12,261 nt of DNA, taken from UHGV virus genome UHGV-0361364. The stretch is one strand, 5' to 3'. A model generated the notes under the pieces. The model was not told the DNA's origin and made no database searches. It saw only the letters and a program-made list of their open reading frames with translations. The stretch comes from a virus. The position numbers and the translations under genes were made by a program. Shown here piece by piece: positions 3,008-12,261 of the stretch. Position 1 is the first letter of the stretch; every line of letters begins with the position of its first letter.

Positions 3008-3631
3008 TCACTCTCCTTTGATGCGAATGCCAGCGGCGCGCTCGGCTTCACTTTGTTCCCAAAACCACTTGTGAAGCGCCATAAGCTTTTCGTCAATCGG
3101 TGCATATTTGCGATTAAAGTAGGCCTGAGCATCTTTCTCAGATTCGTCCGGTAATTCGCCTGGGCCAAACAGTGTGTTATAAATCCATGCCAGTCCGCTT
3201 TTAGCGTCGCCAGTCGATTGCCATTCGATAATGGCAGCCTGCATGACCAGAATGTTTTTCCCGATTAACAGGTCCAGTTCTTTGTACCGGTTGCGGATGT
3301 ATGCATTCTCGCTTTGTAATTTTGCGTTGCGCTTCTCTGCGGCTTCCAGATCAACTCTCAGCTTCCCTACCGTTAGCGCAATATCCTCGTTCTCCTGGTC
3401 GCGGCGTTTGATGTATTGCTGGTTTCTTTCCCGTTCATCCAGTAGTGCCAGCAAGGTTTCTGGTCCGGTCAGAAATTTGAAGGCGTTGAGCGCATCAATA
3501 TCCACACCGTAATCCTTAAGTTCCTGTTCACTTAACAAATCATCATCAACTGGCAACATTAACAGGCGTTCCATTGCCGGAATTGCACGTTCTGCCGCCA
3601 GTCGCAGAGCCTGATAGTTAATCTCGCTCAC
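3008..3631 (-). CDS. Ead/Ea22-like coiled-coil protein
   Basis: 207-aa ORF rich in predicted coiled-coil heptads ([39 protein letters not shown]). GTG start at 3631 preceded by strong SD AAGGAGG. Family assignment is from recalled similarity to Ea22-like prophage proteins, not a search. Confidence 0.6.
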
Positions 3632-5749: not shown

Positions 5750-5776
5750 CAAAAATAAAGGCCGACTATGCGGCCT
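5750..5776 (-). terminator. Intrinsic terminator-like hairpin (minus strand) directly after the 207-aa gene
   Basis: Stem GGCCG (5760-5764) / CGGCC (5771-5775) with the TAG stop of ORF 5766-6389 in the loop, followed on the minus strand by UUUAUUUUU. Confidence 0.5.
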
Positions 5777-6389
5777 CGGAAGGAAGTCCAATCATCTTAT
5801 TCAAATCTTCTACCCGTAAAGCAGGAAGTGCTGTACTTGCTTTATCTGCTTCTTTTGGTAGCAATTCTTTGCTTTCAGGCCAAACTTCAATAAGTCGCTT
5901 AACTGTTGTTACTGAGTTCAAAGCAGCCCATACATTTGATTCGATATCCTTTTTCAAGGCTTCAAGGTTTTGTTGCAATGCGCAGATTTCATCAAACCTT
6001 TTTGTTATTTCGTGTTCTGCGTCAAACATGCATTTATCTTTGGTCGGAGTAGGGAGCAATATATCTTCGCCGTTGCCGTCTTTCCCATATGAATGCCATC
6101 CAACCCTTCTGCCAGATACAGTCAGATAAATTGAAGTAGAACGAACATCGTATGAATAAAATGAACATCCCATCTTTTCAAGTTCTTCACTTACAGCTAC
6201 CAACTTGGATGATAACTGATCCACTTCCTCAGTTTTCTTTTTACCGCCAAACGCAATAACTCTGGCGTCAAGTGCAAGCTGGTTCTTTAACTTTGTTACT
6301 TCTTCAAGTTCAGTGAAAACCCCAGACTTAATTAAAGCGTTACGAGCGATTTCCTCTTTCATTCTCGTAGTTAAGCGGATTGATGACAT
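5766..6389 (-). CDS. Hypothetical protein, 207 aa, predicted largely helical/coiled-coil; candidate accessory (moron) gene
   Basis: ATG at 6389 preceded by SD GAGAGGAA; the ORF-track start at 6404 is TTG. No family recognised. Lies between ral and cIII and is bracketed by terminator-like hairpins at 6405-6435 and 5750-5776. Confidence 0.65.
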   Translation of the reverse strand: MSSIRLTTRMKEEIARNALIKSGVFTELEEVTKLKNQLALDARVIAFGGKKKTEEVDQLSSKLVAVSEELEKMGCSFYSYDVRSTSIYLTVSGRRVGWHSYGKDGNGEDILLPTPTKDKCMFDAEHEITKRFDEICALQQNLEALKKDIESNVWAALNSVTTVKRLIEVWPESKELLPKEADKASTALPALRVEDLNKMIGLPSEAA

Positions 6390-6404
6390 ATTAATTCCTC
6401 TCAA

Positions 6405-6435
6405 ATAAGAAAATAAAGGCCACCATCAGGCAGCC
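6405..6435 (-). terminator. Strand-specific terminator-like hairpin (minus strand) overlapping the ral stop
   Basis: Minus-strand RNA GGCUGCC-UGAU-GGUGGCC forms 7 bp including two G-U pairs (these would be C-A mismatches in the plus-strand transcript), followed by UUUAUUUUCUUAUU. The ral TGA sits in the loop. Confidence 0.4.
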
Positions 6436-6626
6436 TTGTTGTTCAGTTTACCAAGTTCTCTGGCAATCATTGCCGTCGTTCGTATTGCCCATTTATCGAC
6501 ATATTTCCCATCTTCCATTACAGGAAACATTTCTTCAGGCTTAACCATGCATTCCGATTGCAGCTTGCATCCATTGCATCGCTTGAATTGTCCACACCAT
6601 TGATTTTTATCAATAGTCGTAGTCAT
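6426..6626 (-). CDS. ral: Ral-like restriction alleviation protein
   Basis: 66-aa Cys-containing product MTTTIDKNQWCGQFKRCNGCKLQSECMVKPEEMFPVMEDGKYVDKWAIRTTAMIARELGKLNNKAA matches my recollection of lambda Ral in length and sequence. Located between N and cIII as in lambda. Confidence 0.7.
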   Translation of the reverse strand: MTTTIDKNQWCGQFKRCNGCKLQSECMVKPEEMFPVMEDGKYVDKWAIRTTAMIARELGKLNNKAA

Positions 6627-6696
6627 ACGGATAGTCCTGGTATTGTTCCATCACATCCTGAGGATGCTCTTCGAACTCTTCAAATTCTTCTTCCAT
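6610..6696 (-). CDS. Putative 28-codon highly acidic ORF overlapping the ral start
   Basis: Hand translation from the ATG at 6696 gives MEEEFEEFEEHPQDVMEQYQDYPYDYDY then TGA. Strong SD GAGGTGA 5 nt upstream. Overlaps the ral ATG by 17 nt in another frame. Translation is unproven. Confidence 0.3.
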   Translation of the reverse strand: MEEEFEEFEEHPQDVMEQYQDYPYDYDY

Positions 6697-6806
6697 ATAT
6701 CACCTCAAATAAGTGGTTTGCTGCCTAATTTCATTTTCTGGCGACCAACACAAGTCACACCCATTTCACTGCGTGGCTTGCGGTAGTAAATTAGGTTTGT
6801 TCAGAC

Positions 6807-6830
6807 AATAAAAAACCCACCGAAGTGGGC
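6807..6830 (-). terminator. Intrinsic terminator (minus strand) after the 112-aa gene
   Basis: Stem CCCAC (6816-6820) / GTGGG (6825-6829) with a UUCG tetraloop on the minus strand, followed by UUUUUUAUU. The gene's TAG stop is at 6830-6832. Confidence 0.6.
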
Positions 6831-7168
6831 TATGACCATTTTTTATTTGGATTTCGTTGGTGAGCGTGATTAACAACTCTGTTCATTACATCCTCATATT
6901 TTTCATCTTCAATTTTTTCGACATCGCGAGGAAATGGTGTTGCTAATGCTTTGTCAACTTTGTCCATTGGGTCTTCATTAATCTTATATTCAGGGCCATC
7001 ATCTATAGCATTAAATCCAGGTGTTACACCGTTTTTTAATGCATATGCTATCCTTTTTTCCCATCTCGCTATTCTCCTCCTGTCTCGAGATGTAAGACCT
7101 CTATCAGATACTTTTCTGTTTTGTCCGCGGTCAGGATTAACATAAATAGTCTTTTTCACCATAAGCAT
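6830..7168 (-). CDS. Hypothetical basic hydrophilic protein, 112 aa, at the position lambda uses for sieB
   Basis: First ATG at 7168 lies 2 nt after the N stop (possible translational coupling; weak SD). A second ATG is at 7162. Product MLMVKKTIYVNPDRGQNRKVSDRGLTSRDRRRIARWEKRIAYALKNG... has an Arg-rich N-terminus and acidic C-terminal half, with no transmembrane segment, unlike SieB. Confidence 0.5.
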   Translation of the reverse strand: MLMVKKTIYVNPDRGQNRKVSDRGLTSRDRRRIARWEKRIAYALKNGVTPGFNAIDDGPEYKINEDPMDKVDKALATPFPRDVEKIEDEKYEDVMNRVVNHAHQRNPNKKWS

Positions 7169-7170
7169 AC

Positions 7171-7476
7171 TCAATAAGCACCGTACGGTAGTTTACTGTA
7201 CAATTTTATTTTTTGGACTGCATGTATTTTGTTTCCTAATGGGTTTGAATCTTTGTAATAAATACTTCTATTTTTTCGAACGACTTCTTCTTTCTTCTTG
7301 CAGCAAAGGCTTCCTAGCGATGCTGCTTTGTCTGCTCTGACGCAACCAGAGAGCTTTAGCGCAATTTTTCGCGCCAGTGCTTCATTACTGCGTCGCTCGG
7401 CAATAAGTTCTGCTCTGCGAGCTTTGTAGCGGCTTTTTGCCGTACCTTTGGATTCTTTCCAGACAATGGTTACCAT
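7171..7476 (-). CDS. N: N-type transcription antitermination protein (phage-21-like arginine-rich motif)
   Basis: ATG at 7476 preceded by strong SD AAGGAG. The N-terminal arginine-rich motif GTAKSRYKARRAELIAERR matches, as I recall it, the phage 21 N boxB-binding peptide. First gene of the leftward operon downstream of nutL. Confidence 0.8.
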   Translation of the reverse strand: MVTIVWKESKGTAKSRYKARRAELIAERRSNEALARKIALKLSGCVRADKAASLGSLCCKKKEEVVRKNRSIYYKDSNPLGNKIHAVQKIKLYSKLPYGAY

Positions 7477-7586
7477 GATGGTCTCCTTTAAGTGGCTTTG
7501 GCGCATGACGCGTCGAGGTGCTTATCTTCTCGATCGCTGTCTTGCAGCTGCAATTCGCGCCATCCCCAAAACCACTCAAGTTCTGG

Positions 7587-7627
7587 TCTCAACGGTTAGG
7601 TTGAGAGTCCGTCGATGTTAAAGAGCC
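7587..7627 (-). promoter_or_regulatory. nutL: nutL: boxA-like GGCUCUUUAACA (7616-7627) followed 9 nt later by a boxB-like hairpin with CUAACC loop (7587-7606)
   Basis: Minus-strand reading: GGCTCTTTAACA matches the boxA core GCTCTTTAACA, then stem TCTCAAC / GTTGAGA around loop CTAACC. The loop and spacing are the same as in the nutR candidate while the stems differ. Confidence 0.6.
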
Positions 7628-7673
7628 TGCCAATCTGTTCCGTTTGGCTTCCAGCGTCCTGCTGATGGCTTAA

Positions 7674-7726
7674 ATTTAAGACTTCTTAATTTATTGGCCA
7701 AGTGTATTTTTGAAGAAAACTTAATT
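7674..7726. promoter_or_regulatory. OL operators (P22 c2-type half-sites) overlapping a candidate leftward PL promoter
   Basis: ATTTAAGACTTCTTAATT (7674-7691) and TTTGAAGAAAACTTAATT (7709-7726) fit the P22 operator pattern ATTTAAG-N4-CTTAAAT. On the minus strand a candidate -35 TTGGCC, a 16-nt spacer and -10 TTAAAT overlap the first operator. Promoter hexamers are tentative. Confidence 0.55.
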
Positions 7727-7767
7727 TTATGGGCGTGAATTTAGTTTGTCTTTGATTTTTAACGGGA

Positions 7768-7790
7768 AATAAAAAAGGGGCGAAAGCCCC
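7768..7790 (-). terminator. Intrinsic terminator of the c2 transcript
   Basis: Stem GGGGC (7777-7781) / GCCCC (7786-7790) with a 4-nt loop, followed on the minus strand by UUUUUUUAUUU, immediately 3' of the c2 TAA stop at 7791-7793. Confidence 0.7.
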
Positions 7791-8441
7791 TTAAGGAAGG
7801 TTTGCTAGCTTGGCATCAACGACAACGCCAATGATTTTACAGTTCCCATTGATTTCAATCATTGGGTATTGTGGATTGAGTGGTTTCAGGAATTTTCTAC
7901 CGGCATCAATAACTAACTTTTTGAATGTCGCCTCGTTTTCTCCTTCAAGTTTGGCGACTACCAACTTTCCATTACGTGGTTCGACTTCTGGGTCGACGAG
8001 AATAATCATCCCCTCAGGAATACTCAGTCCTGCCGGGGCAGTCATTGAATCGCCTTTAACGTCGAGCCAAAAAGAGTCTTCAGAACAATCTACCGTTGTG
8101 TCGTACCAGTTATCTATTGCACGCCTATGATATGGCTCTACAGCTTCCATCCAACATCCTGCGCTTACCCAACTAATTAGAGGATACGAACCTCTTGGAT
8201 CATGCCTGCTGTGATAGGCAATGTTTGAAAGACTATCCTCTCCTTTCAACAGGTAATCAGGGGAGCACTGCAAAGCCTTGGCTAAGGCCAATAGGTTTTC
8301 GCCATTGGGCTCAGTTTCAGATCGCTCCCATTGGGAAATAGCAACATTAGACACGCCAACCATCTTGCCAAGGGCAGCCTGCCTAATCTTGAGTTCTTTT
8401 CTGCGAGCGCGAATACGCTCACCCATCAGTTGTGTATTCAT
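7791..8441 (-). CDS. c2: P22 C2-type prophage repressor (HTH DNA-binding domain plus LexA-like S24 autopeptidase domain)
   Basis: 216-aa product is near-identical over its length to my recollection of phage P22 C2 (MNTQLMGERIRARRK...QAALGKMVGVSNVAISQWERSE HTH; GDSM serine motif; C-terminal VVVDAKLANLP). The ATG at 8441 abuts OR3, which suggests a near-leaderless PRM transcript. Confidence 0.95.
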   Translation of the reverse strand: MNTQLMGERIRARRKELKIRQAALGKMVGVSNVAISQWERSETEPNGENLLALAKALQCSPDYLLKGEDSLSNIAYHSRHDPRGSYPLISWVSAGCWMEAVEPYHRRAIDNWYDTTVDCSEDSFWLDVKGDSMTAPAGLSIPEGMIILVDPEVEPRNGKLVVAKLEGENEATFKKLVIDAGRKFLKPLNPQYPMIEINGNCKIIGVVVDAKLANLP

Positions 8442-8713: not shown

Positions 8714-8755
8714 TGCTCTTTAACAGTTCTGGCCTTTCACCTCTAACCGGGTGAG
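8714..8755 (+). promoter_or_regulatory. nutR: nutR: boxA TGCTCTTTAACA (8714-8725) followed 10 nt later by a boxB-like hairpin with CUAACC loop (8736-8755)
   Basis: boxA is identical to the rrn/lambdoid boxA consensus over 12 nt. Hairpin UUCACCU-CUAACC-GGGUGAG, which matches my recollection of the phage 21 boxB. Same loop as the nutL hairpin on a different stem. Confidence 0.65.
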
Positions 8756-11551: not shown

Positions 11552-12261
11552 TGCACAGAAAACCCCCAGCTAGGCTGGGGGTTCCGGAAAGCTTTCAGCT
11601 TTGAGCCAGTTATTAAAACCCCTTTTGATTTGTTAAAACACCTTGCGGTCTGGCAACTGCAAGTGTCAAACAAGAAATCAAAAGGGGGTCCCAATGGGGA
11701 ACGAAAAGAGCTTAGCGCACACCCGATGGAACTGTAAATATCACATAGTTTTTGCGCCAAAATACCGAAGACAAGTGTTCTACAGAGAGAAGCGTAGAGC
11801 AATAGGCAGTATTTTGAGAAAGCTGTGTGAGTGGAAAAGCGTACGGATTCTGGAAGCAGAGTGCTGCGCAGATCATATCCATATGCTTGTGGAAATCCCA
11901 CCCAAAATGAGCGTATCCGGCTTTATGGGATATCTGAAAGGGAAAAGCAGTCTGATGCTTTACGAGCAGTTTGGTGATTTGAAATTCAAATACAGGAACA
12001 GAGAGTTCTGGTGCAGAGGGTACTACGTCGATACGGTGGGTAAGAACACGGCGAAGATACAGGATTACATAAAGCACCAGCTTGAAGAGGATAAAATGGG
12101 AGAGCAGTTATCGATTCCCTATCCGGGCAGCCCGTTTACGGGCCGTAAGTAACGAAGTTGGATGCAAATGTCAGATCGTGTGCGCCTGTTAGGGCGCGGC
12201 TGGTAAGAGAGCCTTATAGGCGCATTTGAAAAACCTCCGGCTATGCCGGAGGATATTTATT
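11552..12261 (+). mobile_element. IS200-family insertion sequence (IS200/IS605 group, single Y1 transposase, no terminal inverted repeats); boundaries approximate, right end at or near the window edge
   Basis: Contains tnpA plus the structures recalled for IS200: left-end hairpin CCCCCAG / CTGGGGG (11563-11581); a long-range pairing CCCCTTTTG (11619-11627) with CAAAAGGGG (11679-11687) that sequesters the tnpA SD; right-end hairpin CCTCCGGC-TAT-GCCGGAGG (12234-12252) followed by ATATTTATT. Span of about 707 bp fits IS200. Confidence 0.7.
11694..12152 (+). CDS. tnpA: IS200 transposase TnpA (HUH / Y1 single-strand transposase)
   Basis: 152-aa product MGNEKSLAHTRWNCKYHIVFAPKYRRQVF...ADHIHMLVEIPPK...RGYYVDTVGKNT carries the HxH (HIH) motif and catalytic Tyr region, and closely matches recalled IS200 TnpA. 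Start at the ATG at 11694 after SD AAAGGGGG; the ORF-track upstream extension was rejected. Confidence 0.9.
   Translation: MGNEKSLAHTRWNCKYHIVFAPKYRRQVFYREKRRAIGSILRKLCEWKSVRILEAECCADHIHMLVEIPPKMSVSGFMGYLKGKSSLMLYEQFGDLKFKYRNREFWCRGYYVDTVGKNTAKIQDYIKHQLEEDKMGEQLSIPYPGSPFTGRK

What the first reader, a model, noticed from the sequence alone, without database searches (positions are those of the whole stretch)
6807..7168. Hydrophilic Arg-rich 112-aa protein at the slot lambda uses for sieB, coupled to N
Lambda, as I recall its map, carries the membrane protein SieB immediately downstream of N. Here that slot holds a soluble protein with an Arg-rich N-terminus (RGQNRKVSDRGLTSRDRRRIARWEKR) and an acidic C-terminal half. 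Its start is 2 nt after the N stop, and it ends at a clean UUCG-loop terminator. The basic segment suggests nucleic-acid binding. An exclusion or anti-defence function is a hypothesis from position only.
Basis: partly seen in the sequence, partly recalled or inferred. Interest (0 to 1): 0.55.

Follow-up and report, generated by a model that had tools for sequence, protein, structure and literature searches.

The report
Phage HK022 Nun exclusion gene
The Arg-rich protein is not new: it is Nun, the well-studied prophage protein that blocks infection by phage lambda by stalling RNA polymerase on lambda transcripts, here in its usual place just after a phage-21-type N gene.

Summary
A hydrophilic ORF on the minus strand ends at 6830. 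Its first ATG (7168) lies 2 nt after the N stop, and a UUCG-loop terminator follows it.

It is a known protein, Nun of coliphage HK022. It matches 107 of 109 residues of the Nun chain in the cryo-EM structure 6ALG. It matches 26 of 26 residues of the Nun arginine-rich peptide solved on lambda boxB RNA (1HJI). It hits PHROG 5632, "Nun-like transcription termination factor", at E 6e-70.

The same N-then-nun arrangement is annotated in phages mEp235 and mEpX1. It occurs in about 212 of 5426 complete E. coli genomes.

Nun binds lambda nut RNA and arrests RNA polymerase. The resident phage has phage-21-type N and nut sites and no lambda-type boxB, so it should be immune to its own Nun.

Homologues and the solved protein favour ATG 7162 as the start, not 7168.

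Minor extras:
- nun arrived as a 473-bp cassette that left a fossil of the phage-21 N 3' end downstream.
- HK022 keeps a fossil N 3' end upstream of nun.
- This copy carries a rare H93N change.

Novelty: already known. Interest is low.

The parts
6830..7162 (-). nun coding sequence. The preferred start is ATG 7162, giving 110 aa and a 109-aa mature protein V1..S109. The stop is TAG 6832-6830.
   Evidence: 107/109 identical to PDB 6ALG chain N, 'Transcription termination factor nun', E 2.7e-70. PHROG 5632 'Nun-like transcription termination factor', E 6e-70, full length. Differences from HK022 Nun are S11R and H93N. Homologues start at M-x-K-K.
7028..7105 (-). Codons for the Nun arginine-rich motif, residues 19-44: DRGLTSRDRRRIARWEKRIAYALKNG. 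This is the RNA-binding helix for lambda boxB.
   Evidence: 26/26 identical to PDB 1HJI chain B, the Nun peptide solved with lambda boxB RNA. Role as described in PMC5386594.
6833..6883 (-). Codons for the C-terminal RNA-polymerase arrest module, residues 93-109: NRVVNHAHQRNPNKKWS. H98, R102, K106, K107 and W108 are all present. Residue 93 is N instead of H.
   Evidence: The segment is visible inside the RNAP cleft in 6ALG, and the residue roles are described in PMC5386594. The motif VNHAHQRxPxKKW is invariant across all Nun-like classes. H93N identified.
6807..6831 (-). Intrinsic terminator directly after the nun stop: stem CCCAC/GTGGG, TTCG loop, T6.
   Evidence: HK022 has a terminator at the same place with compensating stem changes (CCCGC..GCGGG).
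7171..7476 (-). Antiterminator gene N, 101 aa. Residues 1-57 are identical to phage 21 N, including its arginine-rich motif. The C-terminal ~44 residues are of a different N variant (..EEVVRKNRSIYYKDSNPLGNKIHAVQKIKLYSKLPYGAY). The stop is TGA 7173-7171.
   Evidence: PHROG 271, E 1e-31. Comparison with phage 21 N and mEp235 N. The same C-terminal motif occurs in a lambda-type N of locus L007. mEp235, an isolated phage, has this N with one residue different.
6813..7288 (-). Segment shared with phage HK022 at 96.6% identity. It holds the variant N 3' end (a gene fossil in HK022), nun and the terminator, and behaves as the mobile nun cassette. In HK022 the nun promoter P_Nun was mapped just upstream of the coding sequence (my recollection of King et al. 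2000). That would fall in 7169-7288 here.
   Evidence: BLAST of the window against HK022, phage 21 and mEp235. Alignment. No strong sigma-70 consensus was found by two scans, so the promoter is inferred from conservation only.
6705..6801 (-). Fossil of the phage-21-type N 3' end: NLIYYRKPRSEMGVTCVGRQKMKLGSKPLI*. It was stranded downstream of the nun terminator by the cassette insertion.
   Evidence: Phage 21 matches window 6410-6801 and 7254-7900, with 21 bp of phage 21 matched twice. Translation. The same fossil is present in mEp235 and in E. coli BR1220.
7587..7606 (-). nutL boxB of phage 21 type (TCTCAACCTAACCGTTGAGA). boxA (GCTCTTTAA) lies at 7618-7626.
   Evidence: Exact match to the stem-loop annotated as nutL in phage 21. 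Sequence read. No lambda-type boxB occurs anywhere in the window; the best hit has 3 mismatches, as expected by chance.
8714..8752 (+). nutR: boxA (TGCTCTTTAACA) followed by a phage-21-type boxB (CACCTCTAACCGGGTG).
   Evidence: Sequence read. Position after cro is as in the phage 21 annotation.

Best explanation
The ORF is nun, the transcription-arrest and superinfection-exclusion gene first described in coliphage HK022. Here it is carried by a mosaic lambdoid prophage with phage-21-type N and nut sites.

**Mechanism established for HK022 Nun.** This copy is 98% identical.
- The N-terminal arginine-rich helix (residues ~20-44) binds the boxB hairpin of lambda nutL and nutR RNA, in competition with lambda N.
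- With NusA, NusB, NusE and NusG, the C-terminal ~35 residues thread into the RNA polymerase cleft between the beta' lid, the rudder and the hybrid. This blocks translocation.
- Early lambda transcription therefore stops just downstream of nut, and a superinfecting lambda cannot grow.

**Steps inferred for this locus.**
1. The prophage is immune to its own Nun, because its boxB hairpins are of phage 21 type and no lambda boxB is present.
2. In the lysogen, nun is transcribed from a weak constitutive promoter inside the conserved 120 bp that here also encode the N C-terminus. That transcript stops at the UUCG terminator.
3. After induction, nun is also transcribed from pL together with N. It is probably translated from ATG 7162, 8 nt after the N stop, possibly by re-initiation. 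N-modified polymerase then reads through the terminator into ral.
For: **Identity**
- 107/109 identical to PDB 6ALG chain N and 26/26 to the 1HJI Nun peptide.
- PHROG 5632 'Nun-like', E 6e-70, over the full length.
- All residues reported as needed for arrest (H98, K106/K107, W108) are present.

**Published mechanism and exclusion phenotype**
- PMC5386594 and PMC4124055.

**Same arrangement elsewhere**
- Annotated 'transcription termination factor Nun' next to 'antitermination protein N' in phages mEp235 and mEpX1.
- The cassette is in 221 of 5426 complete E. coli genomes. The N-nun junction is in 212.

**Resident nut sites**
- They are of phage 21 type, with no lambda boxB.

**Cassette and family**
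- The cassette, including 120 bp upstream of nun, is 96.6% identical to HK022.
- The terminator is present.
- The frame is conserved in 23 protein clusters, with an invariant C-terminal motif.
Against: - Nothing was tested functionally here.
- This copy has H93N. H93 stacks on the non-template -10 base in the structure. The exact protein is rare, seen on 2 contigs, and the nearest genome has H. Some loss of potency cannot be excluded, although distant Nun relatives naturally carry N at that position.
- No convincing sigma-70 promoter was found computationally upstream of nun. The paper that mapped P_Nun (King et al. 2000, PMC94296) could not be read.
- That Nun does not act on phage-21 nut sites rests on my knowledge of Robert et al. 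1987, not on a tool result.
Confidence: 0.93

Rival explanations
1. It is a Nun orthologue weakened or inactivated by the private H93N substitution, a decaying passenger gene in a prophage that no longer excludes lambda efficiently.
For: H93 contacts the upstream DNA duplex in the structure, and the authors chose it for mutagenesis. H93N is the only difference from the closest genome copy. The exact sequence was seen on only 2 contigs.
Against: All single substitutions tested in PMC5386594 retained substantial arrest activity at saturation. Asn is the natural residue at this position in three divergent Nun relatives and in most of the second Nun class. The ORF, the terminator and the upstream region are intact.
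Confidence: 0.06
2. Because nun sits 2-8 nt after N in the pL operon, its main role in this kind of phage is during lytic growth. It might block co-infecting lambda-type phages or damp host transcription at high Nun concentration, rather than acting in prophage-state exclusion.
For: About 96% of E. coli nun copies are joined to a 21-type N (212 of 221 genomes). A 47%-identical relative is joined to N with a 1-nt gap in two different N backgrounds. Nun binds non-specific elongation complexes with a Kd of about 300 nM (PMC5386594).
Against: nun mutants of HK022 grow lytically and lysogenize normally, and no function other than lambda exclusion is known (PMC4124055). The cassette keeps its own terminator and the upstream stretch that carries P_Nun in HK022. 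That layout is typical of a gene expressed from the prophage.
Confidence: 0.1
3. It is a new soluble exclusion or anti-defence protein unrelated to known families that merely occupies the lambda sieB position.
For: No Pfam, NCBIfam or PADLOC model hits it. RefSeq calls it 'hypothetical protein' or 'transcriptional regulator'.
Against: It is 98% identical to a protein with solved structures and three decades of biochemistry. The lack of Pfam and NCBIfam models is an annotation gap, not novelty.
Confidence: 0.01

Closest known systems
Nun of coliphage HK022 (PDB 6ALG chain N; 1HJI; PHROG 5632)
   Same: 107/109 residues are identical. The boxB-binding arginine-rich motif and the C-terminal arrest residues H98, R102, K106, K107 and W108 are identical. 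A terminator follows directly. The 120 bp upstream are 97% conserved. The position is first in the pL operon after the antitermination determinant.
   Different: S11R and H93N. In HK022 there is no N gene: putL precedes nun, and the stretch upstream of nun is only a fossil of an N 3' end with its stop changed to TGG. Here that stretch is the working C-terminus of a phage-21-type N.
nun genes of phages mEp235, mEpX1, Kapi1 and PA28, and of Stx1a-converting phages
   Same: The arrangement is the same: cI, pL, nutL (21 type), N, nun, terminator. Identity is 98-99% for mEp235 and Kapi1 and about 91% for PA28 and the Stx1a phages. mEp235 also has the N fossil after nun.
   Different: Downstream genes differ: the window has ral and an Nmad5-family gene, mEp235 a different ORF. 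mEp235 Nun has H93 and E63.
Lambda N and phage 21 N (arginine-rich-motif antiterminators)
   Same: An N-terminal arginine-rich helix binds a nut boxB hairpin, and the C-terminus enters RNA polymerase. Both depend on Nus factors. Nun competes with lambda N for the same RNA.
   Different: The outcome is opposite: arrest instead of antitermination. There is no detectable sequence family relationship (no N_peptide or N36 Pfam hit).
SieB of lambda and P22
   Same: Only the map position next to N and the general category of prophage-encoded exclusion.
   Different: By published description (own knowledge), SieB is a membrane protein that aborts infection. This ORF is strongly hydrophilic (GRAVY -1.25). 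It is unrelated in sequence and acts on transcription.

Membership tests
HK022 Nun transcription arrest factor | Full-length sequence homology to Nun | tested here: met
   107/109 identical to 6ALG chain N, E 2.7e-70. PHROG 5632, E 6e-70, covering 1-112 of 112.
HK022 Nun transcription arrest factor | N-terminal arginine-rich motif specific for lambda boxB RNA | tested here: met
   Residues 19-44 are 26/26 identical to the peptide solved on lambda boxB (1HJI). Binding itself was not measured.
HK022 Nun transcription arrest factor | C-terminal arrest determinants (H98, K106/K107, penultimate W108) | tested here: met
   All are present. The motif VNHAHQRxPxKKW is invariant in the family. One neighbouring contact residue differs (H93N).
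HK022 Nun transcription arrest factor | Expression from the repressed prophage by its own promoter (P_Nun), with the transcript ending at a terminator after nun | tested here: inconclusive
   The terminator is present. The 120 bp upstream are 97% identical to HK022. No strong sigma-70 consensus was found, and the mapping paper is not held.
HK022 Nun transcription arrest factor | Excludes lambda by arresting transcription downstream of lambda nut sites, dependent on Nus factors | not testable with these tools
   Needs plating and transcription assays. Published for HK022 Nun (PMC5386594, PMC4124055).
HK022 Nun transcription arrest factor | The resident phage's own early transcripts are not targets | tested here: met
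   nutL and nutR boxB are of phage 21 type. There is no lambda boxB in the window. That Nun ignores 21-type boxB is from the literature as I recall it, not tested.
SieB superinfection exclusion protein | Membrane protein homologous to lambda or P22 SieB | tested here: not met
   No SieB family hit in Pfam or PHROGs. GRAVY is -1.25, with no hydrophobic segment.
N-type antiterminators | Match to N family profiles (PF25694, PF11438, PHROG 271) | tested here: not met
   No such hit for this ORF. The upstream ORF hits them instead.

The most novel reading that the evidence does not exclude
The common natural state of nun is a passenger fused to the 3' end of an N gene. It is found in 212 of 221 E. 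coli genome copies, and in a 47%-identical relative sitting behind two different N specificities. HK022, the model phage, is then a derived form that lost the 5' part of N when it acquired put. If so, Nun is normally co-expressed with a non-cognate N from pL, and may have an unstudied role in competition between phages during lytic growth. Together with the second Nun class, whose N-terminus resembles the phage 21 N motif (seen only in related loci), this would make Nun a small family of retargetable anti-N weapons rather than a one-off.
Probability: 0.2. Interest if true: 0.4.

Novelty: already known. Interest (0 to 1): 0.1.

Why it matters
For the scan, this removes a false lead. The 'unknown Arg-rich protein' is one of the best characterised phage exclusion factors.

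It also exposes an annotation gap. Neither Pfam nor NCBIfam has a Nun model, so RefSeq labels the copies seen in about 220 complete E. coli genomes 'hypothetical protein' or 'transcriptional regulator'.

The side observations are of modest interest to people who study lambdoid mosaicism and N/Nun specificity:
- N fossils lie on both sides of nun.
- HK022 appears to be a derived N-less form.
- Nun relatives exist with swapped arginine-rich motifs.

Tried and rejected
- **Profile libraries.** Pfam, NCBIfam and PADLOC scans of the ORF gave nothing. Only PHROGs and the PDB sequence search identified it.
- **P_Nun paper.** I tried to read King et al. 2000 (PMC94296) for the mapped P_Nun coordinates, but it is not held.
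- **Promoter scans.** Two scans of the 120 bp upstream of nun found only weak candidates, such as TCCAAA-16-TAAACT at 7217-7190. I did not assign a promoter.
- **Literature.** Searches for the N-plus-Nun arrangement or for nun as a moron found nothing specific.
- **Exact-sequence look-ups.** The 112-, 114- and 109-aa readings are not on record. Only the 110-aa reading is.
- **Whole-window search.** Against complete E. coli genomes, no record covers more than 66%. The source strain is not in that collection and was not identified.
- **Rfam.** It found nothing in or near the nun region.
- **SieB analogy.** Rejected, because there is no homology and no hydrophobic segment.

Full report
**What is at the coordinates**

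On the minus strand an ORF ends with TAG at 6832-6830. It has in-frame starts at TTG 7174, ATG 7168, ATG 7162 and GTG 7159. The preceding ORF (7171-7476) stops with TGA at 7173-7171, so ATG 7168 lies 2 nt after it.

Directly after the stop comes a hairpin: CCCAC, a TTCG loop, GTGGG, extendable to 7 pairs, followed by six T. The protein is very hydrophilic (GRAVY -1.25). Net charge is +10 over residues 1-45, -8 over 46-92 and +4 over the last 17.

The lambda RefSeq record does list sieB (34482-35036) directly beside N.

**What it is**

The protein is Nun of coliphage HK022.
- A sequence search of the Protein Data Bank gives the 109-residue chain N of 6ALG, 'Transcription termination factor nun', at E 2.7e-70 with 107/109 identities.
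- The same search gives the 26-residue Nun peptide of 1HJI at 26/26 identities.
- PHROGs gives family 5632, 'Nun-like transcription termination factor', at E 6e-70 over the full length.
- Pfam, NCBIfam and PADLOC have no model for it. That explains why RefSeq labels it 'hypothetical protein' or 'transcriptional regulator'.
- The two differences from HK022 Nun are S11R and H93N.

**Surroundings**

The window is the early-left and immunity region of a mosaic lambdoid prophage. In order it holds an integrase, a DUF551 protein, an Ea22-like protein, Abc2, Erf, an Nmad5-family protein, Ral, Nun, N, a LexA-like repressor, Cro, CII, an O-like replication protein and a DnaB-like helicase, followed by an IS200-type transposase.

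The ORF upstream of nun is N.
- It hits PHROG 271 at E 1e-31.
- Its first 57 residues are identical to phage 21 N, including the motif GTAKSRYKARRAELIAERR.
- nutL boxB (7587-7606) is an exact copy of the phage 21 stem-loop.
- nutR after cro has a 21-type boxA and boxB.
- No lambda-type boxB exists in the window. The only hit, with three mismatches, is what chance gives.

**How nun got there**

Phage 21 DNA matches window 6410-6801 and 7254-7900, and 21 bp of phage 21 are matched by both pieces. HK022 matches 6813-7288 at 96.6%. Relative to phage 21, the window therefore has a 473-bp insertion inside the 3' end of N.

The insertion brings three things:
- a different but genuine N C-terminus (..RKNRSIYYKDSNPLGNKIHAVQKIKLYSKLPYGAY). 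The same motif ends a lambda-type N in locus L007;
- nun;
- the terminator.

The displaced phage-21 N 3' end survives as a fossil just downstream of the terminator, at 6705-6801, reading NLIYYRKPRSEMGVTCVGRQKMKLGSKPLI*. The same fossil is in phage mEp235 and in E. coli BR1220.

In HK022 the stretch upstream of nun is the mirror case. It is a start-less fossil of the variant N C-terminus, with the N stop changed to TGG and preceded by put-region sequence.

**How common the arrangement is**

- The N-then-nun arrangement is annotated as such in mEp235 and mEpX1. It is also present in Kapi1, PDP110P1, PA28 and many Stx1a-converting phages.
- The nun cassette occurs in 221 of 5426 complete E. coli genomes, always on the chromosome.
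- A query spanning the whole 21-type N plus the start of nun is covered at 80% or more in 212 genomes.
- The N-coupled form is therefore the rule, and the N-less HK022 form is the exception.
- A 47%-identical relative sits 1 nt after N in two contigs. Their N proteins have different arginine-rich motifs but the same C-terminus. This shows that the N 3' end and nun travel together.
- In two HK022-like relatives nun directly follows a putL-like sequence. In one of them an N C-terminal fossil lies downstream.

**Start codon**

The solved protein begins at V4 of the 112-aa reading. The literature numbering (W108 penultimate, S109 last; PMC5386594) fits a 109-residue mature protein.

Homologues at 47-66% identity were all called from M-x-K-K, the equivalent of ATG 7162, and lack the upstream Met-Leu. 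The exact 110-aa reading is on record in the protein collection; the 112-, 114- and 109-aa readings are not.

I therefore prefer ATG 7162, 8 nt after the N stop. A weak GAG lies 7 nt upstream of it, read directly from the sequence. This is inference, and gene callers chose those starts.

**Mechanism**

The following is shown for HK022 Nun in the literature.
- The arginine-rich helix binds lambda boxB in competition with lambda N.
- Nus factors and boxA stimulate the reaction.
- Lysogens hold roughly 100 nM Nun, enough for nut-tethered but not general arrest (PMC5386594).
- No function other than lambda exclusion is known, and nun mutants of HK022 grow and lysogenize normally (PMC4124055).

The following is inferred here.
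- The same activity applies, given 98% identity and retention of H98, R102, K106, K107 and W108.
- The prophage is immune to its own Nun because its nut sites are of 21 type.
- In the prophage state, nun is expressed from the conserved upstream 120 bp. My recollection of King et al. 2000 places P_Nun there; the paper is not held.
- Those transcripts end at the UUCG terminator.
- After induction, nun is co-expressed with N from pL.

The promoter could not be confirmed computationally. Only weak sigma-70 matches are present.

**The H93N change**

- H93 stacks on the non-template -10 base in the structure.
- H93N is the only difference from the nearest genome copy, and the exact protein was seen on just two contigs.
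- Against a defect, every substitution tested in vitro kept substantial activity at saturation.
- Asn is also the native residue at this position in divergent Nun relatives.

**Family view**

The family is small: 23 clusters for Nun itself. The C-terminal motif M-x-x-x-VNHAHQRxPxKKW is invariant, while the N-terminal basic motif varies.

In locus L007 a Nun orthologue is followed by a second 97-aa Nun-like ORF, which overlaps it by 7 nt.
- Its first 30 residues resemble the phage 21 N motif (12/30 identical to the window's N).
- Its C-terminus is Nun-like.
- This class has 14 clusters, all unnamed.

This suggests retargeting of the arrest module to other nut types. It lies outside the window and was not tested.

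**Verdict**

The functional guesses of nucleic-acid binding and exclusion are right. The protein and its arrangement are already known and already annotated in phage records. Interest is low.

Noticed in passing
window 6705-6801 (-): A fossil of the phage-21-type N C-terminus (NLIYYRKPRSEMGVTCVGRQKMKLGSKPLI*) lies just downstream of the nun terminator. It was left by the 473-bp cassette insertion. It is conserved in mEp235 and E. coli BR1220.
   Followed up: yes
L001 (HK022 NC_002166) about 8065-8184 (-), just upstream of nun: HK022, which has no N gene, keeps a start-less fossil of an N C-terminus (EVVRKNRSIYCKDSNPLGNKIHAVQKIKLYSKLPYGAYW..), with the N stop changed to TGG. This implies descent from an N-nun phage. 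I could not check whether it is already described in the literature.
   Followed up: partly
window 6881-6883 (-), Nun residue 93: H93N is a rare substitution at a residue that stacks on the non-template -10 base in the Nun-RNAP structure. The closest genome copy and HK022 have His. Distant Nun relatives have Asn.
   Followed up: partly
L007 3324-3617 (+) (Logan ERR3406188_276): A second Nun-like ORF (97 aa) overlaps the end of a Nun orthologue. Its N-terminus resembles the phage 21 N arginine-rich motif and its C-terminus keeps VNHAHQRRPDKKWS. There are 14 unnamed clusters, from Klebsiella, Enterobacter and metagenomes. It may be a Nun retargeted at 21-type nut sites.
   Followed up: partly
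L007 4117-4440 (+): A lambda-type N (MDAQARRRERRAEKQAEWKAAN..) is encoded downstream of putL and two nun genes, in the same phage as a Nun with a lambda-boxB-type motif. This is an odd combination. Whether that phage has lambda-type nut sites was not examined.
   Followed up: no
L009 2637-3291 and L010 46-643: The same 96-aa Nun relative (47% identical, divergent basic motif) sits 1 nt after N in two contigs. Their N proteins have different arginine-rich motifs but an identical C-terminal half. This points to recombination inside N that carries nun along.
   Followed up: partly
window 5766-6404 (-): An Nmad5-family protein ('nucleotide modification associated domain 5', Pfam E 1e-70; PHROG 1965, function unknown) lies in the pL operon just after ral.
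   Followed up: no
window 11561-12152 (+): An IS200-type Y1 transposase (Pfam E 5e-38), preceded by the Rfam STnc490 element (146 bits), is inserted right after the DnaB-like helicase gene.
   Followed up: no
window 3008-3631 (-): The Ead/Ea22-like protein also matches the PADLOC DpdH model (E 9e-37, residues 96-194). Whether this is shared domain content or a defence link was not examined.
   Followed up: no
RefSeq E. coli genomes, e.g. L005 2524-2862: This is an annotation gap. Nun has no Pfam or NCBIfam model and is labelled 'hypothetical protein' or 'transcriptional regulator' in the RefSeq E. coli rows listed. The N gene beside it is also 'hypothetical protein'.
   Followed up: yes
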